DNA of 20,000 nucleotides from an uncultured virus (IMG/VR IMGVR_UViG_3300049448_000779). Lineage: Duplodnaviria; Heunggongvirae; Uroviricota; Caudoviricetes. A program made the position numbers and the translations under genes. How positions within the stretch are numbered: position 1 is the first letter of the stretch; every line of letters begins with the position of its first letter. Of this stretch, positions 2,790-20,000 are shown one piece after another. The DNA is taken from the IMG/VR virus record IMGVR_UViG_3300049448_000779; one strand, given 5' to 3'. The notes under the pieces are model-generated. The model did no database searches. It was not told the DNA's origin and worked only from the letters and a program-made list of their open reading frames with translations.

Positions 2790-3428
2790 TCAGTCCAAGC
2801 CGGTTTTGAAGATTGACCGCAGTTCTTGCCTCACCATGAGCCGCAGCTCGTGTCGCATGCCGTCTTCCTGCATGACCTCGCGGATCAGCGAGCGCAGCGA
2901 GATATCCCCTGCCCCTGCCCCGGCCCCTGCTGTAGATGCGGCGCGTGTCGCATTGTGCTTCGGGCTCGCAGTCGTATCGCGCCTCGGGCTCGCAGTCGTA
3001 TCGCGCCTCGGTCGTGCCGAGGGCTGCTGCTGCTGTCGCTGTTCAAGCGTGAACGTGGCCGCCGTTTTCCGTGGCTCTAGCATCTCGCGTTGGATGTCGC
3101 TGGGGGTCGCTACGCGATAACAACCACGTTCCTCTGACGTGAAGTAATGGACTAAATGACGGTTGCCTTGGGTATCGGTTACAGTCCGCTTGCTGGAGTT
3201 CAGCATCGTCGAAATGTAGGCGCGAAGATTGCCGGACTTAAACGTTTCGCCCGCGGCCGCCAGTGCTGCCTCGACCTCCGGGCCTGTCATGGTTCGATCC
3301 TGCATCACCGCAGCGAAACGTTGGGGAACAGTCAAGTTCGTCTTTGACTTGACCAACTCGAGCTTGACCTTGGCCTTCACCTTCGGAGGCTTGACCGTAC
3401 TGCTGGATTTTTTCTTTGGCATGGGCAT
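2790..3428 (-). CDS. Hypothetical protein with probable winged-helix domain and Lys-rich N-terminus
   Basis: 212 aa. 'MTGPEVEAALAAAG...NLRAYISTMLNS...FTSEERGCYRV' fits a wHTH layout, followed by a low-complexity linker. Confidence 0.65.
   Translation of the reverse strand: MPMPKKKSSSTVKPPKVKAKVKLELVKSKTNLTVPQRFAAVMQDRTMTGPEVEAALAAAGETFKSGNLRAYISTMLNSSKRTVTDTQGNRHLVHYFTSEERGCYRVATPSDIQREMLEPRKTAATFTLEQRQQQQPSARPRRDTTASPRRDTTASPKHNATRAASTAGAGAGAGDISLRSLIREVMQEDGMRHELRLMVRQELRSIFKTGLD
2960..3011. repeat. 24-bp perfect tandem repeat (2 copies plus 4 nt) encoding PRRDTTAS
   Basis: tcgggctcgcagtcgtatcgcgcc x2 then tcgg. Confidence 0.95.
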
Positions 3429-3507
3429 GGGTTGTTGAGTTTGTAGCGCACCATAGCCACAAATCCCTCGATGTGCAGCAGTCTAGTTGCTCTTGACGTC
3501 ACCGGCG

Positions 3508-3639
3508 TTACCGCTGGAGCGGCTTGCACTTCGTCTGGTCGAACTTCGGGAAGCCCATGAACCCAGCCACTAGAGAAGCTGGGAACTGCTGATAGTAGGT
3601 CTTGTAGACCCGACCCTTGTCAAGCAGCTCCTTTTGGTC
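3508..3639 (-). pseudogene. Fragment resembling the C-terminus of a LemA-like protein
   Basis: Manual translation DQKELLDKGRVYKTYYQQFPASLVAGFMGFPKFDQTKCKPLQR*. The 'Y...FPxxLVAxxxGF' pattern is LemA-like. No start codon for the full stretch; it follows the TGA of the Pth2-like gene in frame. Confidence 0.5.
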
Positions 3640-3966
3640 TCAAGATGGCCGGCTCAAGGTCAATGGTAGCTTAGCCACCAGGCTCCTCCCCTGCGGGCCG
3701 ATCACGATCGCAGTCAGTTCGTTGTCGCGGTCTGGCTCTCGGAAACGAACCACTGGGATCCAGCGACGTTCGGCGGCGAGAGCCAGTGCCTCGAGATCGG
3801 GCTCGCTAGGAACGGACAGCAGAGCAAGGGTGTTCGAGCTACTGTGCCATTCACTAGAGATCTACGAGAACTCGAAAGCGAACTCAAGCACCGCGTGGCA
3901 ACTCTGGACTGCCTGCTGCCCGGGACTCAAATCTTGGCGAGTCACGACGTAGAGCTTACTCATCAT
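3640..3966 (-). CDS. pth2: Peptidyl-tRNA hydrolase type 2 (PTH2)-like protein with in-frame TAG at codon 35 (3862-3864)
   Basis: Manual translation MMSKLYVVTRQDLSPGQQAVQSCHAVLEFAFEFS*ISSEWHSSSNTLALLSVPSEPDLEALALAAERRWIPVVRFREPDRDNELTAIVIGPQGRSLVAKLPLTLSRPS. PTH2-family hallmarks on both sides of the stop (YVVxRxDLSxGxxAxQxxHA; W; EPD...TAIxIGP; LPL). Start overlaps the upstream gene's stop. Confidence 0.85.
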
Positions 3967-4381
3967 TGGCTATCGCTTCTTGTTTGAGGCGCTCTTCGTC
4001 TGCGAAATGCGCCCGCAGCTTCTCGAGTATGTGGTCTGGAGCACCGCGGGCTTTCAAAGTCTTCTCCCAATCCTTGTCAGGGCAATCGAAGTATTCCCAG
4101 CTCCGCCGCTCACCCACGCCAATCTGATGAGGCACTCCGTAAACCTTGCCGTAGGGGGTCTCGACAAAGAGTCGAATGTAAAGCGAAGCGTCTGGGCAAC
4201 ATCCGCACGAGTAAGCGATCTCGTAGTGGGTGGCGATGGTGTTGACGCTCGTTGAGCACGAGAATACTCGGCGCCAGCGATCCGTCTCTTGCCTCAGGTC
4301 TGGGTACAGCTCTAGCAGCCCAGAAAGTCGAGCCGCTTCAGCCTGTGCTGCGTTGATGTCATCCTGGATCGGCATGGCCAT
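3956..4381 (-). CDS. Hypothetical protein (SCGCCPD motif)
   Basis: 141 aa, overlaps both neighbours in a coupled minus-strand operon, GGAGG upstream. Confidence 0.8.
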   Translation of the reverse strand: MAMPIQDDINAAQAEAARLSGLLELYPDLRQETDRWRRVFSCSTSVNTIATHYEIAYSCGCCPDASLYIRLFVETPYGKVYGVPHQIGVGERRSWEYFDCPDKDWEKTLKARGAPDHILEKLRAHFADEERLKQEAIANDE

Positions 4382-4577
4382 CGGCCTCCTCTAGCTGGGC
4401 ATAGTATGCGTCGGCAAGATCGAAGTGGCTCGCCCTCTCCTCTTGGTCATTCCAGCGGCGCACGACCTGCTCGAATCCTTGTTTCTCCCAATGGCTGCCC
4501 ATCAAGGTCCAGCCATGGATTGTGAGATAGGCGATCCGGTGCACTTCCTCGACCGTCAGCCCGCACCGACAGCTCAT
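4359..4577 (-). CDS. Small hypothetical protein
   Basis: 72 aa, ATGA overlap with upstream gene at 4574-4577. Confidence 0.7.
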   Translation of the reverse strand: MSCRCGLTVEEVHRIAYLTIHGWTLMGSHWEKQGFEQVVRRWNDQEERASHFDLADAYYAQLEEADGHADPG

Positions 4578-4777
4578 GCCACACCTTGGTTGGCTAGCCT
4601 TGCCAGCTGCTCAAACGTGAGTGGCCGCGAGCATCGACACTTGTGGCCTTCGCAGACGGGGCCGCCGAAGTCGCAACACGTGAAGCCGGCCTCAGCCTCG
4701 CAATGCCAGTAGTGATCATCCGGGTCCGTGTGATCCGGGATGTGCGAGTAGTGGCAGCGCGTCACAGTGCGCTCCAA
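4574..4777 (-). CDS. Small Cys/His-rich (putative zinc-binding) protein
   Basis: 67 aa with 'HC....TCCDFGGPVCEGHKCRC'; overlaps both neighbours. Confidence 0.7.
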   Translation of the reverse strand: MERTVTRCHYSHIPDHTDPDDHYWHCEAEAGFTCCDFGGPVCEGHKCRCSRPLTFEQLARLANQGVA

Positions 4778-5853
4778 AGCCGCGAGAGGTACTGCTGGAT
4801 CGTCGGAGTCGAAAGCGACTTAGCATACGCGAATGCCTCCCGCATGCCTTCAGCCGAGTGCTCGAAGAACTTCGATTCGTGCGTCTCGCCATCCAGGAAG
4901 ATGGTCAGCTTGACCGGCCCAGTCTTCACGCCCCAGTCGAGGTCGACCGTGAAGCCGTTCGACTTATTGATGATGCGCCGACACCAACGACTCTCCTTGC
5001 CAGTGAAGCCAGGGCACCAGCCCTGGTACGTGATCCCGAGGCTTTCATGGTCTTCCGGGTTGAGGCTCAGGTCCTTCAGTTGCTGCGCGAACTCGAGGTA
5101 CAGCGGATCTGTCGCCTTGAAGTCCTCGCGCCACGCCTCGTGCCGGCGGACGCCTTCGGCTCGCGCGACGCGTCGCTTGCCCTCGGCCTCTGACACCCAC
5201 ATGTTCACGAACCGCAGCTCGCTCTCGTGTCGACGGTACGTGCGGATCGACGCCCAGCCGCGCTGCTCGATCGGAACGTCGTCTTCAGCATCCTCCGCCT
5301 CGGGCTCCGGCTCGTAACAACGGACGAGCCCGTCGCTCGAGATCTCCGGCCATTTGTCTTCTGCGTACGCGCCCTCGAACTCGAGCGCGGGCCAGCCCCG
5401 CATCGGATCCGAGAAGTCATAGAAGCGGTACTCGTACGGGCAGGCCCAGAAGCAGCCATCCACGATCAAGATCTGGCTCGCAGCGTCGAACTTGTAGTCG
5501 GCCCAACAGAAGCCCCAGCCCTGTTCTGCTTCCTCGGGCAGGTGGTCGCGCCGTTTGCCGGTGTCCAGTTCGATCACCGTCTGCCCCTGGTAGTCCTCCC
5601 CGCAGATGAGATACGGGTGCCCATTCGGGTGGTCTTCGATGAACGCGTATGGAAAGCAGCTGTAGTTGCGGCGCACGTCCGCGATCGCCTTGTCCGAGCC
5701 GAGCTTGAACACGAGGCCCTGCGTATAGTTCCAGCAGCCCTTCTCGGTCGAGAAGGGCGTAATCACGATCTTGTACTGACCGGAGTCAGATAGGTATTCG
5801 CGCCGGCATTTGAGGTTTGCGTTCTCCGGAGCGAAGAAGTCGAGGTTGGTCAT
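4762..5853 (-). CDS. Hypothetical protein, aromatic/beta-rich
   Basis: Start reassigned to ATG 5853 (MTNLDFF), which forms an ATGA overlap with the upstream stop and has GAGG upstream; 363 aa. Confidence 0.8.
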   Translation of the reverse strand: MTNLDFFAPENANLKCRREYLSDSGQYKIVITPFSTEKGCWNYTQGLVFKLGSDKAIADVRRNYSCFPYAFIEDHPNGHPYLICGEDYQGQTVIELDTGKRRDHLPEEAEQGWGFCWADYKFDAASQILIVDGCFWACPYEYRFYDFSDPMRGWPALEFEGAYAEDKWPEISSDGLVRCYEPEPEAEDAEDDVPIEQRGWASIRTYRRHESELRFVNMWVSEAEGKRRVARAEGVRRHEAWREDFKATDPLYLEFAQQLKDLSLNPEDHESLGITYQGWCPGFTGKESRWCRRIINKSNGFTVDLDWGVKTGPVKLTIFLDGETHESKFFEHSAEGMREAFAYAKSLSTPTIQQYLSRLWSAL

Positions 5854-6215
5854 GCCGCCACCTCTTCTTTCACAATCGCTGGGACCTCGGGAGCCTTGGC
5901 GTCCAGCCACGCCGTGATCGCGTCCTTGGTCAGCTCGAACCCACGTTGGCTAGCCATGGATAGCATGCCGTTGTGAATCCAGTAGGTGTCGTAGCGGTCG
6001 TGCTTGGCCTCCAGCACGTGGCGCGGGACTCCCCGCAGCATCGCGTACGTGAGCAGCAGACACCGGGTGGTGTTGCCCTCCGAACGCTTTTCCTGCCATG
6101 CCTGCCAGCGCTCCATGTGACTGGTCGCTTGGATACGCTTGCCAATCTCTCGGCTCGCAGCCTCTCGTGTCTTGATCTCTAGTTTCAGTTCCGGGTATCT
6201 GTTCTTCTTACTCAT
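5850..6215 (-). CDS. Hypothetical protein (LLLTYAMLRGVP motif), first gene after the leader
   Basis: 121 aa; AGGAG SD 8 nt before ATG, lying in the 3' arm of a hairpin. Confidence 0.85.
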   Translation of the reverse strand: MSKKNRYPELKLEIKTREAASREIGKRIQATSHMERWQAWQEKRSEGNTTRCLLLTYAMLRGVPRHVLEAKHDRYDTYWIHNGMLSMASQRGFELTKDAITAWLDAKAPEVPAIVKEEVAA

Positions 6216-6223
6216 GACTCATT

Positions 6224-6265
6224 CTCCTGTGACTTGGGGTGTTGACAATTACACCGCCACAGGAG
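6224..6265 (-). promoter_or_regulatory. SD-sequestering hairpin (translational attenuator)
   Basis: mRNA CUCCUGUGGC-GGUGU-aauuguca-ACACC-ccaa-GUCACAGGAG: 10-bp outer stem (one G-U) pairing with the SD, plus a 5-bp inner stem. Confidence 0.8.
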
Positions 6266-6317
6266 GGCCACGAGCCCGGGGACTAGAGATCTACCAAAAA
6301 TGTCCGATGATCTGCAT
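6249..6317 (-). CDS. Leader peptide MQIIGHFW-[TAG]-ISSPRARGPPVAV, putative readthrough-dependent arrest peptide
   Basis: ATG 6317, in-frame TAG 6291-6293, RGPP codons 6272-6261, TAA 6249-6251. TAG context identical to that in the Pth2-like gene. Confidence 0.7.
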
Positions 6318-6348
6318 TTCGTCTAACCTAAGGTTCTCTCTACACCTG

Positions 6349-6561
6349 TCAAGTCTCGTACAAGACTTTGGAAGAATCCCGATCGATGACGCGGGCGCGT
6401 AGTTTGTCGTTCTTAGCCACTTTGTCGGCCACTTTCTTGGCTTCAGCCAACGAGGGCCTGGCTTTCTCGAAGACCCAGCGCTCCACCGATTTTAGGGTGA
6501 ATTCCACCACAAATGGGGATAGCCCATCGTACTTACTAGCGGTGCGGTAGTCGTAAGTCAT
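6349..6561 (-). CDS. Small hypothetical protein with MTYDYRTAS N-terminus
   Basis: 70-aa ORF; start region repeated at 11800-11830. Confidence 0.7.
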   Translation of the reverse strand: MTYDYRTASKYDGLSPFVVEFTLKSVERWVFEKARPSLAEAKKVADKVAKNDKLRARVIDRDSSKVLYET

Positions 6562-6596
6562 ATCAAGTGACCAGCATCAATAGATAAATACACCAT

Positions 6597-7805
6597 TCAA
6601 CTTAGTAGGTCGCTGAACCGGGCGCAGGTACTATCTTCAGACCAGGCCCCCAACGTACCGTCATCCCCTGTTGACGCTACATAGGTACGCTTCGGTGGAT
6701 CTTCTTGAATGTTCTCGACGTCAACGGTGATCGTACGACGTTCGCGACGACCGCGCGGGCCGCATACGGCAATAGATCCATCGCTAACCACATAAATTGC
6801 AGTCGCGCATATGCGGCGTGCTAAATCTCGCAGCGCGGGTCTAACCCAATCCTCGACTGTTTCCATTCCGAGTTCCGTGGGCATAGCAATCACGACATCT
6901 CCGTTACCCTTAAGGAAGGCGATGAAACTCGAAGGGACCTCGTGGTCAGGTGTGTTGTGGATCACCTTCTGTGCTGCCTGCAACACGTGTTCAGTGAGAT
7001 CAGCATCTTTGCGCTCCTGCCAGGCCTGGACCTTCAGAACCCCATTGATGACCAGATTGTTTCCATCCACCTGAGCTGTGGGCTTCCATCCCAAAAGCTC
7101 CTGTCGCTTCGTTTCAGCCTTAGATGCCGCGCTATCGAACGCCGGTACCAGCCGCTTACCCAACGCAACGGCGAGGACACTGGGTTCGAGCGGCGGCTTG
7201 ATTCCAGAAAGCCTGTGGATCTCGGCCGCTATATACTCTACTTTAGCGGCCGAGCTGAGTGTGTTGGGAGGATGATGGATTCGCTCGGGCCGCACGGGAC
7301 GAACCCCTTGAGCCACCGCACGGGACAAGACATGCGCCTGCGTAGCGATTACCATCGCCCGTGTCATCGCCGTCTCACCATCGGCACCGTTCTCAATCGC
7401 TGTCCGCAGCGCTCGTATGAACATCAGTACGAAGGTACGCGAGCAACTCTCATCTCCGGCGAGTTGCTTGTAGCGGTCGAAGATTACCTCTTCGGCCTCT
7501 ACAACTTCCACCTCCGCAAGAACGGCTCGAATGCTGGCTGTGGGGAGTATCGGCTCGCCGCCATCTCCCGCTTGGAGCTGACCTTCTCCGAAACACAGAA
7601 AGCGTTTTGAGACGTGCAGCCCATTGGCTAGCTCACCCAGCTCGATGAGCGTCGGCACATCTTCAAAACACTCGAAGTGCTGAAGACTATCACTATTCAT
7701 CTGAATCGCGGCGGCGAAACTGTCACGCGTATGACCCGCCTGCAAATACAAGCCGGTGATCCGTTCAGGCATTGTCAGCCAAGAGATAGGCTTTTCATCA
7801 CTCAT
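6597..7805 (-). CDS. XRE-family HTH domain protein with uncharacterised C-terminal domains
   Basis: Start at ATG 7805 after GGGAGG. 'LQAGHTRDSFAAAIQMNSDSLQHFE...PTLIELGELANGLHVSKRFLCFG' matches the Cro/C1-type HTH pattern. Confidence 0.7.
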   Translation of the reverse strand: MSDEKPISWLTMPERITGLYLQAGHTRDSFAAAIQMNSDSLQHFECFEDVPTLIELGELANGLHVSKRFLCFGEGQLQAGDGGEPILPTASIRAVLAEVEVVEAEEVIFDRYKQLAGDESCSRTFVLMFIRALRTAIENGADGETAMTRAMVIATQAHVLSRAVAQGVRPVRPERIHHPPNTLSSAAKVEYIAAEIHRLSGIKPPLEPSVLAVALGKRLVPAFDSAASKAETKRQELLGWKPTAQVDGNNLVINGVLKVQAWQERKDADLTEHVLQAAQKVIHNTPDHEVPSSFIAFLKGNGDVVIAMPTELGMETVEDWVRPALRDLARRICATAIYVVSDGSIAVCGPRGRRERRTITVDVENIQEDPPKRTYVASTGDDGTLGAWSEDSTCARFSDLLS

Positions 7806-8749: not shown

Positions 8750-8811
8750 TGGTCTACTTGTCAGGAGGGTCTATAGGCACCCTCCAATACCCAGTGGCCA
8801 CAAGAAGAAAC

Positions 8812-9504
8812 ATGACCCTCCCGCAAATCGGAGAGACTTGGACCCACCGACTCGTGCATGCCGACGGGATCGTCGCCCGGGTAGTAGGGACAATCGTCAC
8901 GTTCGTCAGCCTTACCGGTAATCGGGCCAGCATTCAGTTTAACCGGCAGGGCGCTGCTGAGAACACCCCACCGGACTGGGTACTCAAGAGTCCGGCCCCA
9001 TCTTGGTTCCAGTCGTGCTCTAGAGAACGCTGCCCCGGCTCTGCGTTCATCCGCTATGTTAGGCCACCCAAGGACGTGGTGGAGCTGGTCTGCCCAGCGC
9101 ATGTCCCAAAGGGAATCAAATCCGAGGCGTCGGACAAACCATTCCTAGTAACTGGGTTCTTCCACGGCTCCACCTGCCTCGCCTGCGGGCAAGATGGCAT
9201 CGAGGTCTTCGGGGAGCTGCCTTGGTCTCGCCAGCAGAGCGACAGCCTGTGGTGCTGCTCCGTGTGCTCCGAGTGGTGGCTGCTCACCAACTGGGGAGGT
9301 TTCTCGACGGACTTCACGAATCAGCAAGCCGCGATGCGCTGTCCAGCTGGCTTCATGTTCCAGTCGGTGGTCGGCAGAGAAGAGACAACGCTGCTGCCAG
9401 GTTGGACATACCGCGTGCGCGTTCGGATCCAGCTCGGCCACGTTTTGATGGGGGTCAGACCGCCGACGATCTACGACCACCTGAAGGAACGAGACGCCGG
9501 CTGA
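8812..9504 (+). CDS. Cys-rich hypothetical protein (putative multiple zinc fingers)
   Basis: Likely start ATG 8812 (avoids overlap with the divergent gene). CSRERC, CPAH, CLAC and CSVC clusters. Confidence 0.7.
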   Translation: MTLPQIGETWTHRLVHADGIVARVVGTIVTFVSLTGNRASIQFNRQGAAENTPPDWVLKSPAPSWFQSCSRERCPGSAFIRYVRPPKDVVELVCPAHVPKGIKSEASDKPFLVTGFFHGSTCLACGQDGIEVFGELPWSRQQSDSLWCCSVCSEWWLLTNWGGFSTDFTNQQAAMRCPAGFMFQSVVGREETTLLPGWTYRVRVRIQLGHVLMGVRPPTIYDHLKERDAG

Positions 9505-9509
9505 TGGCT

Positions 9510-10139
9510 TCAGACGAACCGATCCTGTTTGCCCCACATCGCGAGCTGCACCAACGCGCGCTGATACGCATGTTCGCTCGCGACCCTGCCCTTCGGGAAG
9601 CTCAGCGGGAACTTCACGACTAAGCGGCTCGTGCCGCGATCGCTGCCCCAGAGCATCAGCTCGTGCGCCGACCAGGAGATCTCCGGGATCTCGAGTTCGA
9701 ATTCTGTGTCTGGGTTCTCCGCATATGCGACTGTCACGTGCGGCTTGTAGTCGGGAAATTTCTTGCTGTAGTCGATCGATGCCTCCTCCATCGACTCGCA
9801 AATGGACTTGTGGAACGCGTGCAGCTCGGGCGAGCGAACCTTCGCGATGACGGGCACGCCATCGTCCCCTGCCGGGAACGTGGTGATGAGATCCGTCGAA
9901 AGGGAGAACGGCAGCGTCCGAGACGTCACGTGATAGAGCACAGGCAGTAGCTCAGCGATGCGTTCGATCGGAACATCCTTTCCCAGGTACACGACAGTCG
10001 TATGGAGGTTATGGGCCTCGGGGGTGCCTGGCACCTCGACCTCGTTGAGGATACGCGCCGTCTCTTCGGGAACTGGGAACATCAATGCGGCCACAAGGTC
10101 TCCTATTGAGTGCTGAGTAACAGACGATTGGTCATCCAC
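9510..10139 (-). CDS. 2H phosphoesterase (2'-5' RNA ligase / Acb1-like superfamily)
   Basis: Two HxT motifs, 'LHTTVVYLG' and 'YKPHVTVAY', at typical spacing. Confidence 0.85.
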   Translation of the reverse strand: MDDQSSVTQHSIGDLVAALMFPVPEETARILNEVEVPGTPEAHNLHTTVVYLGKDVPIERIAELLPVLYHVTSRTLPFSLSTDLITTFPAGDDGVPVIAKVRSPELHAFHKSICESMEEASIDYSKKFPDYKPHVTVAYAENPDTEFELEIPEISWSAHELMLWGSDRGTSRLVVKFPLSFPKGRVASEHAYQRALVQLAMWGKQDRFV

Positions 10140-10623: not shown

Positions 10624-10950
10624 ATGAACATGAACGAACTACTTGAATTGCAGGCTCGGCTTTGGGCGGCGAAAGTCAACAAGCACTTGATCGGCGCCGC
10701 CTCAGGCTATGCCGATGCCCTAGAGAGAGAAGCTGGCCCTGTAGACTATGACGGCTACAAGCACTCTGCTAGCCATCTCTTGGCTCTCGTTGAGAAGGTG
10801 ATCCGGGTTCGCAACGCGCCGAAGGCTCCCGAGAAGAAGCTCAAACCTGAGCCTGAGCCAAAAGTGGCCATCGAGCCCCCTGTGCTCGACAATGAAGTCG
10901 AAACCAAGGTGGTGGCGAAAGCGCCCCCGAAGCCCAAGCCCAAAGGCTAG
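10624..10950 (+). CDS. Hypothetical protein with Pro/Lys/Glu-rich tail
   Basis: 108 aa, AGGAG SD, convergent stop overlap with the kinase gene. Confidence 0.75.
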   Translation: MNMNELLELQARLWAAKVNKHLIGAASGYADALEREAGPVDYDGYKHSASHLLALVEKVIRVRNAPKAPEKKLKPEPEPKVAIEPPVLDNEVETKVVAKAPPKPKPKG

Positions 10951-11609
10951 CTGACCTCACGTAAGAAGCCCTGGATGGCCAAACGCAGGTCGTCGATCGT
11001 GCCCGTGTTCTGAAACACTCGGTCGAACGCCGAGTCGGGGATGCTGGCTTGCTCCACTTCAGATTGATGCAGAGCAGCCGCACCTCCGAGCCCAGCACCA
11101 GGTCGTGAGATACGTAGAACGAGCCCGCCGGCTTCCTTGATCGCGGCCATCTCGTTCTTGAAACGCACGTCCGGAACCGCCACGCCAAGCACAGAACGCA
11201 TGCGTCCGCGCCCGCCCGTACGTTTCACAAGTCCCAGCTGCTGCGTGTAGTGAAGCTCGACTCCCCCGTCCGTCAACAGTTCTTGAGCGGTCCGGATGCA
11301 GAGGTCGATCCACGTGTTGGGGTAGCATCGGCGCCCCCACTCCGTGCCGAGCAATTGGAGTGCCTCGCGGGGGCTGAGGAAGGAGCCGTCGGCGCGAGGA
11401 TAGCGCTTGTCCTCCGCATTCCGGAATTGGCTTGGACCCCAAAGCTGCTCGTCGGTGAACGCGTAGACCTTGCGAGCGATTTGCTTCAGGGGGTCAGCCA
11501 AGCTCACCTTCGTGAAGCCGTGATCATGTACGAGGATATCAGCGGTAGTATCCTTGCCTGCACCTGCAAGCCCGGACACGCCCAAAATCAGACCAGTAGC
11601 GTTTGCCAT
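10947..11609 (-). CDS. Deoxynucleoside monophosphate kinase (phage T4 gp1-like)
   Basis: P-loop 'GLAGAGKDT', plus 'SLADPLK', 'PREALQLLGTEWGR', 'DVRFKNE' and 'HQSE' motifs. Confidence 0.92.
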   Translation of the reverse strand: MANATGLILGVSGLAGAGKDTTADILVHDHGFTKVSLADPLKQIARKVYAFTDEQLWGPSQFRNAEDKRYPRADGSFLSPREALQLLGTEWGRRCYPNTWIDLCIRTAQELLTDGGVELHYTQQLGLVKRTGGRGRMRSVLGVAVPDVRFKNEMAAIKEAGGLVLRISRPGAGLGGAAALHQSEVEQASIPDSAFDRVFQNTGTIDDLRLAIQGFLREVS

Positions 11610-17803: not shown

Positions 17804-18742
17804 TCACGTTCCGAGCGGGACATGATCCGCGAAGAGCTTCTCGTAGTATTCAGCCGTGTGCGTCTTGCCGATGTCTAGCGTGAAGTTTGGCGGCTCGCGG
17901 ACCACCAACTTAGCTTTGAACTCGCGAGCGTCTCGAACGCTGATCCCAAACGCCGCCGCCAGCTCCTCTGGGCTCTTCTCGGCCGCGCCCTCAGCCAAGA
18001 TGCGAAGCTCCTGTTGGCTGAAGTCCTTCGCCATCAAGTCGAAGTCGACCCACGCCTCGAAGCTCAGCGGGGCGACCCGTTGGAGAATGCCAGCCATCAC
18101 GTTGGCGAAGACGCGGATCTCGTATTGCGCATGCTCGTCGCAACGCAGCCGCAGAAAGTGCATCAGGTTGTGGAGGTCGATCTTCCAGTACCACTGGGTG
18201 TATGTGGAGAGCGGGAGATCGACGCGGGCCAGCTCGCGTGCGATGCCTTCTTGGATCAGCTCGCTGTACTGATTGACCATGAGCTGCCGGTTGTACTGCA
18301 TCTCGGTGGCCAAGCGCGTGTACTTGGTCTCATCGACAGGCTTGCCAGCGCGCCCTTGCTTGTTGTCGGTGCTCTGCAGCTTCATCTGCTCCCGCTCCGG
18401 CAAGTGGAAAACCATCGACATCAAGCTGTACCTAGCTGACTGCTCGTTAAGCGCCGCGGTCCGATGCCGCACCCACTGCCTGGCGACAAAGATGGGCATG
18501 CAGCAGTGAAGCGTCACCTCGCTCATCTCGAACGGGCTCGTATGACGGTGCCGCTTGAGATAGCGGATCAACCCGCGGGTCTGGCTCGTCGCGCGGGTAC
18601 CGTGACCGTAGCTGACTCGAGCCGCACGCTCGATTGCCTCGTCGCCGCCCATGTAATCGACCAGGGCGACGAACCCATGGTCGAGAACCGGAAAGTAGAG
18701 GCCCAGGATTTCTTCGGCTGATGCAACCGTGGTGCGAGGCAT
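17804..18742 (-). CDS. thyX: Flavin-dependent thymidylate synthase
   Basis: 'AARVSY', 'HTSPFE', signature 'RHRTAALNEQSARY', 'HAQYEIR'; start reassigned to ATG 18742. Confidence 0.96.
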   Translation of the reverse strand: MPRTTVASAEEILGLYFPVLDHGFVALVDYMGGDEAIERAARVSYGHGTRATSQTRGLIRYLKRHRHTSPFEMSEVTLHCCMPIFVARQWVRHRTAALNEQSARYSLMSMVFHLPEREQMKLQSTDNKQGRAGKPVDETKYTRLATEMQYNRQLMVNQYSELIQEGIARELARVDLPLSTYTQWYWKIDLHNLMHFLRLRCDEHAQYEIRVFANVMAGILQRVAPLSFEAWVDFDLMAKDFSQQELRILAEGAAEKSPEELAAAFGISVRDAREFKAKLVVREPPNFTLDIGKTHTAEYYEKLFADHVPLGT

Positions 18743-18751
18743 GGGTCTAGT

Positions 18752-18757
18752 TACACC
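18752..18757 (-). promoter_or_regulatory. GGTGTA putative phage promoter element (representative copy)
   Basis: Same hexamer at 2377, 6341, 6589, 10562, 11619, 11776 and 17786, each shortly upstream of a minus-strand start codon. Confidence 0.65.
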
Positions 18758-18834
18758 ACCTTCACACCTGTTGACTCCAACTCCCACCCATCCCAGTGGC
18801 AATTTGGCCCAGGATCTTGACCGTTCCCCTTCTC

Positions 18835-19062
18835 TCATGCATCCGGGTCGATCTCGGGAACGTCCCACACGACTTGAGTGCATCCGCCGTGCCCGTGGAC
18901 ATGGATAGCGTCTTCAAGATTGGCGTAGAAGGTCGTGGAAGGATGCTCGCTCATCCAGTGCAGAGCCACGGAGCCATCCGAGAACAAGGCCAGTTCAGCG
19001 ACTCGTCCTGTCCCTGAAACACCAGAACAGTCGACTTCACGTTGCAAATGACCAATGCGCAT
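18835..19062 (-). CDS. Small phage-type hypothetical protein (SGVSGTGRVAE...VHGHGG)
   Basis: ATG 19062 after AAGGAG; 75 aa. Confidence 0.8.
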   Translation of the reverse strand: MRIGHLQREVDCSGVSGTGRVAELALFSDGSVALHWMSEHPSTTFYANLEDAIHVHGHGGCTQVVWDVPEIDPDA

Positions 19063-19124: not shown

Positions 19125-20000
19125 CTAACGCTGGCCCACAGCGAAAAGCTCCATGATATCCGGTACTTGAAACAGCCAGCCTTCGGGCTCTCCGAGGATG
19201 ACCAATTCATTGATTTTTCCGCGTTTAGTTGCGTCTGCGTTGACCGAGCGGCGCGCCTGAACAGTGCGGATCTGGAAACCTTCGTAAAGCTTCCTAGTCA
19301 CTGGGGAATCGCTGTTGGATTGAACGCAGTAGACTCCACGACACACGAGCTGCCGGCACAGGTCCGCGAGGCGCGCCTGCTCGTCGGGTCCGAACTTGCC
19401 AGCATAGGTGGTAAAGTTCGCGGTACTAGAGATCGGCACGTACGGAGGGTCGAGGTACACGACGTCTCCGGCGCGGGCATCGAGCAGAGCCTCTTCAAAG
19501 TCCCCCGCACGAATCTCTACCCCCTGCAACTCACGACTACAGTCGCGGAGGTTCGCCAAATCGTACAGCCTAGGATTCTCGTAGCGACCAAAGGGAACGT
19601 TGAACTTGCCGGCCTTGTTTACACGGTGGAGGCCGTTGAAAGCCGTCTTGTTCAGGTAGACCATCCGGACCGCCTTCCCAATCACGTCTGGGGGCTCGGA
19701 GGCCCGTACGTCCAAGAAGTGCTCTTTGGTGTTCCAGTCGGGGATGAGAAGTAGCTGTTCCAGGCCATTGATCAGCTCGTCCAGGTGATCCCGAAGCACA
19801 CGGTACAGATTGGTCAACTCGGGATTGAAGTCGTTGATCACGGCTCGAGAGAACCGCCGCTTACCCGCAAATGAGAAGAACGCCGCGCCGCCACCTATGA
19901 AGGGTTCGTAGTAGGTGCCCTGGGTGCATGGGATCAGGCGAGTCAGCTGTGGCAAGAGTTGAGTCTTGCCCCCCGCCCATTTTAGGACAGGCTTGGCCAC
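19125..20000 (-). CDS. dam: DNA adenine methyltransferase, Dam/D12 class
   Basis: 'LKWAGGK', 'YYEPFIGGGA', 'FNVPFG' and catalytic 'DPPY'. GTG start at the window edge. Confidence 0.95.
   Translation of the reverse strand: MAKPVLKWAGGKTQLLPQLTRLIPCTQGTYYEPFIGGGAAFFSFAGKRRFSRAVINDFNPELTNLYRVLRDHLDELINGLEQLLLIPDWNTKEHFLDVRASEPPDVIGKAVRMVYLNKTAFNGLHRVNKAGKFNVPFGRYENPRLYDLANLRDCSRELQGVEIRAGDFEEALLDARAGDVVYLDPPYVPISSTANFTTYAGKFGPDEQARLADLCRQLVCRGVYCVQSNSDSPVTRKLYEGFQIRTVQARRSVNADATKRGKINELVILGEPEGWLFQVPDIMELFAVGQR

What the first reader, a model, noticed from the sequence alone, without database searches (positions are those of the whole stretch)
3640..6346. Candidate new system: operon gated twice by UAG readthrough, ending in a peptidyl-tRNA hydrolase
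Seen: a translationally coupled minus-strand operon (leader, then 121, 363, 67, 72 and 141-aa genes, then Pth2-like). Its first and last ORFs each carry an in-frame TAG in the same 13-nt context GTAGATCTCTAGT (6282-6294 and 3853-3865), in the same frame (TAG ATC TCT AGT, *-I-S-S) and with a Phe two codons before. TAG terminates other genes here (e.g. 7921, 10947, 15174, 19125), so the genome is not globally recoded. Known: RF1 reads UAG, and Pth recycles dropped-off peptidyl-tRNA. Inference: full-length Pth2 is made only when UAG is read through, for example under RF1 shortage or inhibition, with a suppressor tRNA or pyrrolysine, or after mRNA editing. That would make the operon a sensor-response module for disturbed termination, possibly countering a host translation-targeting defence.
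Basis: partly seen in the sequence, partly recalled or inferred. Interest (0 to 1): 0.95.

Follow-up and report, generated by a model that had tools for sequence, protein, structure and literature searches.

The report
Stop-codon-gated stalling leader of phage operon
A soil giant-phage operon starts with a tiny leader gene in which a UAG stop sits just ahead of a ribosome-stalling motif, and ends in a peptidyl-tRNA-hydrolase-like gene with a second UAG, so it is probably translated only when a stop-reading tRNA is active.

Summary
GTAGATCTCTAGT lies at 6282-6294 and 3853-3865 (minus strand), each with an in-frame TAG. Contigs of four other runs show no difference at the sites they cover.

It is a leader ORF: Met, 2-12 codons, a stop codon, 1-11 codons, then Arg-Gly-Pro-Pro (RGPP). 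RGPP is reported as the strongest known bacterial arrest motif. Its codons pair with the ribosome-binding site and start codon of the next gene.

I found 24 different leaders of this design in 25 related phage loci. The operon ends in the Pth2-like gene, usually followed by a suppressor tRNA. The leader's stop codon matches that tRNA in 19 of 19 loci: 14 TAG with CUA, 5 TAA with UUA.

The Pth2-like gene carries an in-frame TAG in 7 of 75 loci, four at the window's codon. A 512-kb relative is not recoded.

Most likely this is a translational switch that senses suppressor-tRNA activity, with a second gate on the hydrolase. The window holds no tRNA, and nothing has been tested at the bench.

My searches found no paper on it. 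This scan noted the same design once before on other DNA (e1-5680253).

The parts
6347..6352 (-). TTGACA, a -35-like hexamer. It overlaps the TGA stop of the upstream 70-aa ORF.
   Evidence: Read. TTGAC lies within 45 nt upstream of the leader ATG in 17 of 24 leaders, mostly 35-38 nt before it (my count on the output; in two loci, L003 and L078, the distance is to a second in-frame ATG). The tool's promoter scan did not call this site, because the second hexamer matches only 3 of 6.
6325..6330 (-). TAGGTT, a -10-like hexamer 16 nt after TTGACA and 7 nt before the leader ATG. The spacing suggests a leaderless transcript.
   Evidence: TAnnnT hexamers sit at the same place in L012, L010, L017, L013 and L003. 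This is inferred; no RNA data exist.
6249..6317 (-). Leader ORF MQIIGHFW-[TAG]-ISSPRA-RGPP-VAV-TAA.
   Evidence: Homologous leaders in relatives.
6291..6293 (-). Gate 1: the in-frame TAG of the leader.
   Evidence: TAG sits at the same place in L012, L010, L017, L059 and L060.
6261..6272 (-). CGT GGC CCT CCT, encoding the Arg-Gly-Pro-Pro arrest motif. It also forms the 5' arm (anti-SD) of the masking stem.
   Evidence: Codon table of 24 leaders: all variation is synonymous except Ala for Gly in L004. RGPP arrest is shown experimentally in PMC12992588 (passages read).
6210..6275 (-). Predicted stem. GCUCGUGGCCCUCCUGUGGC (6251-6275) pairs with the SD AGGAG (6224-6228) and the AUG (6213-6215) of the 121-aa gene.
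   Evidence: MFE -41.4 kcal/mol, z -3.43; consensus fold of 4 relatives; the same kind of pairing in 9 of 10 leaders.
6174..6183 (-). ACUAGAGAUC in codons 11-14 of the 121-aa gene, complementary to the GAUCUCUAGU that follows the leader TAG (6282-6291). It forms the outer helix of the predicted fold.
   Evidence: MFE -58.8 kcal/mol, z -3.64, 0 of 200 shuffles fold as well. Relatives form a different outer helix.
5850..6215 (-). The 121-aa gene, the first gene after the leader. It is a helical protein of unknown function.
   Evidence: Family members are the first gene after the leader in 20 of 22 loci. AF2 model pLDDT 88.8, and no PDB match at E <= 0.001.
4762..5853 (-). The 363-aa gene, an accessory member of the operon. 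It is beta-rich and function is unknown.
   Evidence: Relatives in 31 loci. AF2 model pLDDT 87.5. Foldseek gives only generic beta-propeller matches, TM <= 0.32.
4574..4777 (-). The 67-aa gene, a variable member.
4359..4577 (-). The 72-aa gene. No relatives were found.
3956..4381 (-). The 141-aa gene, a recurrent accessory member.
   Evidence: Relatives lie directly upstream of the Pth2-like gene in L003, L018, L019, L065, L078, L085 and L090.
3640..3963 (-). The Pth2-like gene, 107 codons including the TAG.
   Evidence: Pfam PF01981 E 1.8e-9. 75 related loci.
3862..3864 (-). Gate 2: the in-frame TAG at codon 34 of the Pth2-like gene.
   Evidence: TAG lies in the same alignment column in L011, L060 and L056. 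The flanking frame is conserved without indels.
3562..3583 (-). Hairpin CCCAGCU-UCUCUAGU-GGCUGGG, 57 nt after the Pth2-like stop. Its loop holds the fifth copy of TCTCTAGT and resembles a CUA anticodon loop. Its role is unknown.
   Evidence: No tRNA is called here by ARAGORN or Rfam.

Best explanation
The region is a phage operon whose translation reports on, and depends on, nonsense suppression.

A promoter-like site is placed so that the transcript probably begins at the leader's AUG. The leader encodes MQIIGHFW, then UAG, then ISSPRA-RGPP.

If UAG is read as stop, the ribosome leaves before the stem. In that stem the RGPP codons (GGC CCU CCU GUG) pair with the Shine-Dalgarno sequence and AUG of the 121-aa gene, so the operon stays untranslated.

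If a suppressor tRNA(CUA) reads the UAG, the ribosome runs into RGPP and stalls there. The stalled ribosome holds the stem open, and the 121-aa gene and the coupled genes behind it are translated.

The last gene, a Pth2-like hydrolase, needs a second read-through at codon 34, which lies in a variable surface loop. Its output should therefore rise roughly with the square of suppression efficiency.

In relatives the suppressor tRNA gene lies just behind the Pth2-like gene. In this window it must lie elsewhere in the genome.

What is shown: the conserved anatomy, peptide-level conservation of RGPP, the match between stop codon and anticodon, the predicted pairing, and (from the literature) that RGPP stalls ribosomes.

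What is inferred: that read-through and stalling happen here, that stalling turns the operon on, and what the products do. My guess is that the Pth2-like protein and the 121-aa protein deal with peptidyl-tRNA or stalled ribosomes that suppression creates, possibly including the leader's own arrested complex (a feedback loop).
For: 1. Conserved leaders. There are 24 different leaders of the form M-x-STOP-x-R(G/A)PP in 25 loci, all on the operon strand upstream of the Pth2-like gene. In one search, 19 of the 22 regex hits among 105 R[GA]PP occurrences in six frames of 61 loci lay in that quarter of the search space.

2. Peptide-level selection. Arg uses CGT 10, CGC 12, AGA 1, CGA 1. Gly uses GGC 11, GGT 7, GGA 4, GGG 1. 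Both Pro positions use all four codons. L004 has RAPP instead.

3. Stop codon matches tRNA. There are 14 TAG leaders with tRNA(CUA), 5 TAA leaders with tRNA(UUA), and 0 mismatches. Six leaders have no suppressor tRNA on the DNA held. L078 (TAG) and L090 (TAA) are sisters at 100/99 support, and starred branches force at least 2 changes.

4. RGPP is an arrest motif. [quoted passage not shown]

5. Masking stem. In MFE folds the RGPP region pairs with the SD-to-start region in 9 of 10 leaders, with 7-15 pairs. The window's stem has MFE -41.4 and z -3.43.

6. Second gate. The Pth2-like gene has in-frame stops in 7 of 75 loci. All 8 of these stops are TAG. Four of the loci have it at the window's column, including L056, a distant relative at 31% GC. 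None occur in the 20 aligned genes of the 121-aa family.

7. Linkage to suppressor tRNAs. Of 75 Pth2-like loci, 46 have a suppressor tRNA within 4 kb, and 33 have tRNA(CUA) within 1 kb. Suppressors make up 57 of the 178 tRNAs nearby.

8. Not whole-genome recoding. In 400 kb of the 512-kb relative G001, ORF coverage is 0.85 in the standard code, 0.88 with TAG as sense, and 0.88 with TGA as sense. TAG ends 108 of 437 ORFs.

9. The TAGs are real in four other runs.
Against: - No tRNA(CUA), and no tRNA at all, is in the 20-kb window, and no whole genome is held. So the trigger is not shown for this phage.
- No experiment or RNA data exist.
- The stem is supported mostly by invariant pairs. Only 1 of 28 pairs shows a compensatory change, and 7 of 26.
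- In L002 the MFE fold does not pair RGPP with the SD (0 pairs). L004's fold is no better than shuffles (z +0.29), and L001's is weak (z -1.5). In L012 and L001 that script also picked a false nearby start codon.
- CCUCC is itself the anti-SD sequence. The Pro-Pro codons could therefore be kept partly for pairing rather than for the peptide.
- The promoter is not called by the consensus scan.
- RGPP arrest is very stable, and nothing here says how it is released.
- G001 shows no genome-wide adaptation to suppression. Backup stops after TAG are no closer than after TGA.
- Only 23 of 75 Pth2-like loci have this leader. Most Pth2-plus-suppressor loci, including mycobacteriophage Myrna, lack it.
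Confidence: 0.72

Rival explanations
1. The phage uses a recoded genetic code (TAG as a sense codon, as in code-15 phages). Under this reading the two TAGs are ordinary sense codons with no regulatory role.
For: Suppressor tRNA(CUA) genes are present in relatives. Recoded phages are known to keep standard-code regions (bioRxiv 10.1101/2021.08.26.457843, passages read). Only 20 kb of this genome can be seen.
Against: TAG ends ORFs in the window. The dNMP-kinase-like ORF matches its PHROG profile up to residue 217 of 220, and reading on runs 115 codons to the next non-TAG stop and meets five further TAGs on the way. G001 shows no gain from TAG-as-sense beyond the TGA control, and TAG ends 108 of 437 ORFs. 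In-frame TAGs are confined to the leader and the Pth2-like gene, and none are in the 121-aa family. Recoding does not explain a TAG placed before an arrest motif, nor the TAA leaders that go with tRNA(UUA).
Confidence: 0.07
2. The leader senses release-factor activity (RF1 shortage or inhibition by host or phage), not a suppressor tRNA. Read-through would then be by near-cognate tRNAs.
For: No tRNA(CUA) is in the window. The leader design would respond to any drop in termination at UAG. The base after the gating stop is never T (A 14, C 8, G 2, T 0). As I recall, that pattern fits weak termination contexts.
Against: The stop type matches the neighbouring tRNA's anticodon in 19 of 19 loci, including five TAA leaders. 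TAA is read by RF1 and RF2 alike (established knowledge). Suppressor tRNAs are physically linked to the operon.
Confidence: 0.08
3. The leader TAG is simply the stop of an 8-codon upstream ORF. The downstream 'RGPP' would be a by-product of an anti-SD stem (CCUCC), and the Pth2-like gene would be a recent nonsense pseudogene. The 13-mer identity would be chance or short-patch gene conversion.
For: CCUCC must pair with GGAGG whatever the frame. 13-nt repeats are common in the window. The 13-mer is not conserved in L011 or L012.
Against: Arg and Gly are kept through synonymous codons, including AGA versus CGN, outside the anti-SD core. The stop is always in frame with RGPP, sometimes twice (L002, L061, L063, L065, L086, L098). 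The stop type tracks the tRNA. The Pth2 TAG is kept at the same codon in L011 (72% identity), L060 and L056. The 73 codons after it remain intact and conserved. The variant strain in run X5 keeps the TAG.
Confidence: 0.05
4. Sub-hypothesis on the 13-mer. In this lineage both read-through sites are followed by GAUCUCUAGU because both can pair with ACUAGAGAUC in the 5' part of the 121-aa gene. The loop of the hairpin after the operon could pair there too. A helix starting at the last base of the UAG would tune read-through, or link the two gates.
For: A 10-bp complement lies 98 nt downstream of the leader copy and forms the outer helix of the MFE fold (-58.8 kcal/mol, z -3.64). Four of the five TCTCTAGT copies lie within 3569-6289. 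The motif is rare in relatives: 7 in 772 kb, or 0.18 per 20 kb.
Against: The motif is not conserved. L013 and L060 have both gates without any shared context. Relatives form a different outer helix. The fifth copy lies in the conserved DPPY-xPISSTANF region of the Dam-like methylase and looks coincidental. Pairing over 2.3 kb is speculative.
Confidence: 0.25

Closest known systems
RAPP/RGPP-type ribosome arrest peptides (ApdA, ApdP, SecM-like; seven Streptomyces lividans uORFs). Sources: PMC12992588 (passages read); PMC10951233 and PMC7897499 (search listing and abstracts only).
   Same: A small upstream ORF carries R-(A/G)-P-P near its end, in the same direction as the regulated gene. The stall is thought to expose the downstream ribosome-binding site.
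   Different: Known examples are gated by protein export or membrane insertion, where a pulling force releases the arrest. Here a stop codon placed 1-11 codons before the motif decides whether the ribosome reaches it at all. The peptides are short and cytosolic (about 12-30 residues), and the setting is a phage operon linked to a suppressor tRNA.
Engineered amber-gated tna leader (Liu, Qi, Yanofsky, Arkin 2011, Nat Biotechnol). I saw it only as described in the review PMC6412442, section 6 and the Figure 8 legend.
   Same: A TAG inside a leader peptide makes expression of downstream genes depend on amber suppression.
   Different: That system is man-made. It acts on transcription (a Rho site unmasked in tnaC) and depends on an orthogonal tRNA/synthetase pair. 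The phage version is natural, appears to act on translation (SD masking), and uses RGPP arrest.
prfB (RF2) autoregulatory +1 frameshift at an in-frame UGA (recalled, not looked up).
   Same: An in-frame stop codon early in a message acts as a sensor of decoding or termination efficiency at that codon.
   Different: prfB measures its own product and escapes by frameshifting. Here there is no frameshift, since the frame is collinear with homologues. The sensed factor is a tRNA.
Stop-codon recoding in phages and the 'code change module' of suppressor tRNA, synthetase and release factor (bioRxiv 10.1101/2021.08.26.457843, passages read; PMC13037316, passages read).
   Same: Phage-encoded suppressor tRNAs are used as a timing or regulatory device.
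   Different: Those phages carry in-frame stops across many late genes. Here the genome (G001) uses the standard code, and the only targets found are the leader and the Pth2-like gene. Neither text mentions 'peptidyl-tRNA hydrolase', and the preprint has no occurrence of 'leader'.
Suppressor tRNAs of jumbo phages with unknown targets (Xanthomonas phage XacN1, PMC5852040, passages read).
   Same: A standard-code jumbo phage with tRNA(CUA) genes and a peptidyl-tRNA hydrolase gene.
   Different: The XacN1 authors read through 18 amber stops in silico and found no target. Here natural targets are identified.
   Same: The same design: a UAG-gated leader before small genes and a Pth2-like gene in a standard-code large phage, kept in about thirty loci.
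   Different: It is on other DNA.

Membership tests
PTH2 peptidyl-tRNA hydrolase family (Pfam PF01981) | Match to the family profile above the curated cut-off | tested here: met
   E 1.8e-9, 38.2 bits against a cut-off of 23, covering profile positions 2-108 of 115, with X at the TAG. Relative L010 matches NCBIfam Pth2 models only below their cut-offs: 30 bits against 126, and 27.5 against 82. This is therefore a divergent branch.
PTH2 peptidyl-tRNA hydrolase family (Pfam PF01981) | Hydrolysis of peptidyl-tRNA, with catalytic residues in place | not tested
Invariant residues in the 12-sequence alignment are R8, H22, L56, F73, E75, P76 and D77.
RAPP/RGPP arrest-peptide uORFs | R-(A/G)-P-P motif near the C-terminus of a small ORF, conserved as a peptide | tested here: met
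   24 leaders. Codon variation is synonymous, and L004 has RAPP.
RAPP/RGPP arrest-peptide uORFs | Located upstream of, and in the same direction as, a regulated gene whose ribosome-binding site can be masked | tested here: met
   Every leader precedes a gene of the 121-aa family or another operon gene. Pairing of the RGPP codons with the SD/start region appears in 9 of 10 MFE folds.
RAPP/RGPP arrest-peptide uORFs | Demonstrated ribosome stalling at the motif | not testable with these tools
   Shown for other RGPP peptides in PMC12992588, not for these.
Stop-codon-recoded (code-15-like) phage | In-frame TAG in many genes, and low coding density under the standard code | tested here: not met
   In the window, ORF coverage is 0.90 in the standard code, and in-frame TAGs are supported only in this operon. 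In 400 kb of G001, coverage is 0.85 standard against 0.88 for both TAG-as-sense and TGA-as-sense. Junction counts show no TAG excess.
Stop-codon-recoded (code-15-like) phage | TAG is not used as a terminator | tested here: not met
   TAG ends 10 of the 23 large ORFs kept in the window and 108 of 437 in G001. These counts come from ORFs, not curated genes.
Stop-codon-recoded (code-15-like) phage | Phage-encoded suppressor tRNA | tested here: inconclusive
   None is in the window. One is present in 46 of 75 related loci. In the two IMG/VR relatives with the same leader type (L059, L060) it lies 3.7-3.9 kb behind the Pth2-like gene. The window extends only 3.6 kb on that side.

The most novel reading that the evidence does not exclude
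Standard-code giant phages carry a self-contained controller of nonsense suppression. A suppressor tRNA is deployed for a purpose still unknown, such as host take-over or anti-defence. A stop-gated RGPP arrest leader measures that tRNA's activity in real time. The leader drives a dedicated two-protein unit (the 121-aa helical protein plus the Pth2-like hydrolase, itself amber-gated). That unit either clears the damage suppression causes or feeds back on the suppressor tRNA or on the arrested ribosome. [quoted passage not shown]
Probability: 0.3. Interest if true: 0.92.

Novelty: new variant of a known kind. Interest (0 to 1): 0.82.

Why it matters
Phage suppressor tRNAs in standard-code genomes have had no known targets; the XacN1 authors looked and found none. 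This module supplies natural targets and a plausible logic.

It would be the first natural leader that reads out the activity of a nonsense suppressor. It would also extend RGPP/RAPP arrest peptides, so far tied mainly to secretion monitoring, to a new input. It mirrors a device that synthetic biologists built by hand (a TAG in the tna leader).

It links a divergent Pth2-like hydrolase and an unknown helical protein to stop-codon suppression. That opens a testable route to what these phages do with suppression.

The leader is short and modular: a stop codon of choice plus RGPP plus an anti-SD. It could serve as a compact sensor of suppressor activity.

Tried and rejected
- Whole-genome search: none is held for this window.
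- Exact-match searches for the window's own contig found nothing, in viral contigs or metagenome contigs. The genome beyond the 20 kb could not be reached.
- Megablast of 3400-6600 against GenBank phages gave no match.
- tblastn of the 363-aa, 121-aa and 141-aa proteins against GenBank phages gave no match. No cultured phage with this leader clade was found.
- Rfam at E <= 10 gave only three chance-level hits and no tRNA-like element.
- A second TAG-joined ORF pair at 8761-9951 was rejected. The upstream part translates to Arg-rich, out-of-frame-looking sequence.
- A frameshift or hop at the Pth2 TAG was rejected. The zero frame stays collinear with homologues, without indels.
- A degenerate tRNA behind the Pth2-like gene was not supported. 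The hairpin at 3562-3583 has an anticodon-loop-like CUCUAGU, but no T-arm or acceptor stem, and it is not called by either tool.
- Function of the 363-aa protein: Pfam, PHROGs and NCBIfam found nothing. The ESM Atlas gave unnamed clusters. Foldseek gave generic beta-propeller hits with TM <= 0.32.
- Function of the 121-aa protein: Pfam gave nothing for the window's protein, and one of 20 family members hit DUF5739. Foldseek gave no PDB match at E <= 0.001.
- Genome-wide signs of suppression in G001 were absent. There is no excess of TAG-joined ORF pairs and no closer backup stops after TAG.
- RNA evidence: no RNA holder was listed among the public runs.
- The suppressor tRNAs of sister loci L078 and L090 are not obviously homologous. 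Anticodon and leader stop therefore did not co-vary by a single point change in one tRNA.

Full report
**1. The observation**

Reading the minus strand and searching for the pattern confirm GTAGATCTCTAGT at 6282-6294 and 3853-3865.

At 6293-6291 the TAG is codon 9 of a small ORF that starts at ATG 6317-6315. The ORF reads MQIIGHFW-TAG-ISSPRARGPPVAV-TAA.

At 3864-3862 the TAG is codon 34 of a 107-codon frame. With X at the TAG, this frame matches Pfam PTH2 (PF01981) at E 1.8e-9 and 38.2 bits against a cut-off of 23.

Between the two TAGs lie tightly packed genes of 121, 363, 67, 72 and 141 aa. None of them matches Pfam, PHROGs or NCBIfam.

TAG ends other ORFs in the window. Contigs of four other soil and rhizosphere runs from four studies cover the Pth2 site, and three of them cover the leader site. 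No difference is listed at either 13-mer. One run is a variant strain with 14 substitutions elsewhere. The TAGs are therefore not assembly errors.

**2. Is the 13-mer more than chance?**

A 13-nt exact repeat alone is ordinary here. One search lists other exact pairs of 13-15 nt.

Once both TAGs are known to be meaningful (sections 3-5), aligning them leaves ten further identical bases, at odds of about 1 in 10^6. The core TCTCTAGT occurs 5 times against 0.34 expected. In 772 kb of related loci it occurs only 7 times.

The repeat is therefore real but specific to this lineage. The closest relatives keep the TAGs and not the context. L011's Pth2 site reads ACA TAG CTC TCC CAA. L012's leader reads TGG TAG ATC TTC TAT. 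L013 and L060 have both gates without a shared context.

There is a partial explanation. The GAUCUCUAGU after the leader TAG is complementary to ACUAGAGAUC in codons 11-14 of the 121-aa gene. The two form the outer helix of the predicted fold (-58.8 kcal/mol, z -3.64). Why the Pth2 site and the loop of a hairpin behind the operon (3562-3583) carry the same word is unexplained.

**3. Where the window comes from**

No genome is held, and exact searches did not find the contig.

The window holds genes matching PHROG families annotated as thymidylate synthase, dNMP kinase, DNA methyltransferase and RNA ligase. Relatives of its proteins lie on viral contigs of 155-512 kb. It is therefore a piece of a large soil phage, at 58% GC.

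**4. The Pth2-like gene and suppressor tRNAs**

Protein searches of viral, metagenome and GenBank phage collections gave 75 distinct loci with a Pth2-like gene, counting the window.
- 67 loci have a tRNA within 4 kb.
- 39 have tRNA(CUA), 33 of them within 1 kb.
- 5 have tRNA(UUA) and 3 have tRNA(UCA).
- In 33 loci the only tRNAs nearby are suppressors.
- Suppressors make up 57 of the 178 neighbouring tRNAs.

In the complete 512-kb and 448-kb genomes, the Pth2-linked tRNA(CUA) lies apart from the main tRNA arrays.

The link holds even in the cultured mycobacteriophage Myrna. Its gp84 has a tRNA with a CUA anticodon 130 nt behind it, which the record annotates as tRNA-Ser.

The window has no tRNA. 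In L059 and L060, which share its leader type, the tRNA lies 3.7-3.9 kb behind the gene. The window extends only 3.6 kb on that side.

**5. The second gate**

In-frame stops interrupt the Pth2-like gene in 7 of 75 loci: the window, L011, L060, L056, L013, L107 and L004. All 8 stops are TAG.
- The window, L011 (72% identical) and L060 have the TAG in the same column and form one clade.
- L056, from a 735-kb phage at 31% GC, has it in the same column independently, and has another TAG at codon 3.
- L013 has it 3 residues later, and L107 has one in the same loop region.

Homologues without a stop have E, K, A, V or L at this position. It is a loop that should tolerate whatever residue the suppressor inserts.

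The frame is collinear on both sides of the TAG, and the 73 codons after it keep the family's FREPDRDNELTA motif. None of the 20 aligned genes of the 121-aa family carries a stop.

**6. The leader**

Upstream of the 121-aa gene, the relatives L012, L010, L017, L013, L001 and L002 conserve the small ORF. Scans of all loci found the same design 24 times, in 25 loci. The design is Met, 2-12 codons, one or two in-frame stops, 1-11 codons, then Arg-Gly-Pro-Pro. L004 has Arg-Ala-Pro-Pro instead.

Conservation is at the peptide level. Arg uses CGT, CGC, CGA and AGA, Gly uses all four codons, and each Pro uses all four.

In the blind scan of 61 viral loci, 19 of 22 pattern hits lay on the operon strand upstream of the Pth2-like gene. 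That region is a quarter of the space searched.

TTGAC lies 35-38 nt before the leader ATG in most of the 17 of 24 leaders that have it, with a TAnnnT hexamer 6-8 nt before the ATG. This is my reading; in L003 and L078 the distance is to a second in-frame ATG. The spacing suggests a leaderless transcript. The consensus scan did not call this promoter.

**7. The stop codon matches the tRNA**

All five loci whose leader is gated by TAA (L064, L069, L071, L090, L099) are exactly the five loci with tRNA(UUA). All 14 TAG-gated leaders that have a suppressor on the DNA held have tRNA(CUA). Six leaders, including the window's, have none on the DNA held.

By the exact test this is about 1 in 11,600, but the loci are related. 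On the Pth2 tree, L078 (TAG) and L090 (TAA) are sisters at 100/99 support, and at least two switches are forced.

The tRNAs themselves are diverse, both short and long-armed. The design therefore does not depend on which residue is inserted.

**8. RGPP and the stem**

PMC12992588 (passages read) reports several things about RGPP:
- It is not rescued by EF-P.
- It works with varied N-terminal sequences.
- It is the most avoided tetrapeptide in many bacterial phyla.
- It is enriched at the ends of small upstream ORFs.

In the window, the RNA from the leader to the next start codon folds so that GCUCGUGGCCCUCCUGUGGC, the A-R-G-P-P-V-A codons, pairs with the AGGAG and AUG of the 121-aa gene (-41.4 kcal/mol, z -3.43). 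The same kind of pairing appears in 9 of 10 leaders folded one by one (7-15 pairs). z values are between -2.9 and -4.8 in eight of them. The exceptions are L002 (0 pairs), L004 (z +0.29) and L001 (z -1.5). In L012 and L001 the script also picked a false nearby start codon.

Covariation support is modest: 1 of 28 pairs and 7 of 26.

No U-rich tail follows the stem (one search found no terminator-like site). Control is therefore more likely on translation than on transcription.

**9. The mechanism I commit to**

If the stop is obeyed, the ribosome leaves before the stem, and the ribosome-binding site stays masked. If the stop is suppressed, the ribosome enters the stem and stalls at RGPP. That frees the binding site about 35 nt downstream, and the coupled operon is translated. 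The Pth2-like gene then needs a second suppression event.

This is inferred from anatomy, comparison and the literature. Neither read-through nor stalling has been observed here.

The 121-aa family is the first gene after the leader in 20 of 22 loci. In the shortest operons (L071, L086, L098) it is the only gene between the leader and the Pth2-like gene. The core is therefore leader, 121-aa protein, Pth2-like protein and suppressor tRNA.

The 121-aa protein is predicted to be helical (pLDDT 88.8) and has no PDB match. The 363-aa protein is an accessory, beta-propeller-like protein.

I cannot show what the products do. I favour handling of peptidyl-tRNA or of stalled ribosomes produced by suppression, possibly including release of the leader's own arrest.

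**10. Not a recoded genome**

In 400 kb of the 512-kb relative G001, standard-code ORF coverage is 0.85. Coverage is 0.88 with TAG as sense, the same as the TGA control. TAG ends 108 of 437 ORFs. TAG-joined ORF pairs are not in excess, and backup stops after TAG are no closer than after other stops.

In the window, the dNMP-kinase-like ORF ends at a TAG three residues after its profile match ends.

**11. What is known**

Four full-text searches combined suppressor tRNA with peptidyl-tRNA hydrolase, leader peptide, arrest peptide, phage and recoding terms. They found no description of a natural stop-gated arrest leader, nor of the link between Pth2-like genes and suppressor tRNAs.
- The XacN1 paper reports tRNA(CUA) genes without identifiable targets.
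- The phage-recoding preprint describes 'code change modules' but mentions neither a hydrolase nor a leader.
- An engineered counterpart exists: a TAG placed in the tna leader. I saw it only through the review PMC6412442.
- Supplements were not consulted.

Within this scan, note e1-5680253 describes the same design on another genome. I found it after forming my reading, and it agrees.

**12. Verdict**

The suppressor tRNA is the likely trigger.

The emphasis on the 13-mer was misplaced, and the arrest and SD-masking mechanism was missed. I rate this a new variant of arrest-peptide attenuation with a new kind of input. Interest is high.

Noticed in passing
L002:8354-8431: A tRNA with an 8-base anticodon loop (ARAGORN reads the anticodon as 'ccta') lies 6 nt before the tRNA(CUA) behind the Pth2-like gene. 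It could be a quadruplet (UAGG) decoder.
   Followed up: no
window 3569-3576, 3853-3860, 6176-6183(+), 6282-6289, 19425-19432: TCTCTAGT occurs 5 times against 0.34 expected. Four copies cluster at the operon's two ends and its two gates. The motif is rare in relatives (0.18 per 20 kb). The copy at 19425 codes for PISS in the DPPY-xPxSxTANF region of the Dam-like methylase.
   Followed up: partly
window 3562-3583: A 7-bp hairpin 57 nt after the Pth2-like stop has the loop UCUCUAGU, which looks like a CUA anticodon loop. No tRNA is called there. In relatives this is where the suppressor tRNA lies.
   Followed up: partly
alignment A5 (121-aa family), C-termini: Most members end in -(E/V/K)AA, for example EEVAA, EQVAA and KEEAA. 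This may be a C-terminal degradation tag (as I recall, ssrA-like tags end in LAA), or it may reflect the SD/ATGA overlap with the next gene.
   Followed up: no
L016:4305-5028 and 9328-9842: This locus has two Pth2-like copies. The first sits beside a tRNA(UCA) opal suppressor and tRNAs with the unusual anticodons AAA and AAU. No RGPP leader was found there.
   Followed up: no
L056:5992 and 6094 (LR756501.1, a 735-kb phage): The Pth2-like gene has two in-frame TAGs, at codon 3 and at the window's codon. Both are followed by ATTTA. This is a second case of two gates sharing a local context within one genome.
   Followed up: partly
L058:4463-4534 (Mycobacterium phage Myrna): The tRNA annotated tRNA-Ser in the record has a CUA anticodon by ARAGORN. 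It lies 130 nt behind gp84, which is a Pth2-like protein annotated only as gp84.
   Followed up: partly
window 9513-10139, 10950-11609, 17807-18883, 19128-20000: ORFs matching PHROG families annotated as RNA ligase, dNMP kinase, thymidylate synthase (359 aa) and DNA methyltransferase (Dam-like by its DPPY region). Together they form a nucleotide-metabolism and DNA-modification block, typical of large phages.
   Followed up: no
window 6349-6352: The -35-like TTGACA of the leader's promoter overlaps the TGA stop of the upstream 70-aa ORF. The 416-aa and 70-aa genes are inserted here relative to L010, L013, L059 and L060, where the homologues of the 152-aa and 135-aa genes directly precede the leader.
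   Followed up: partly
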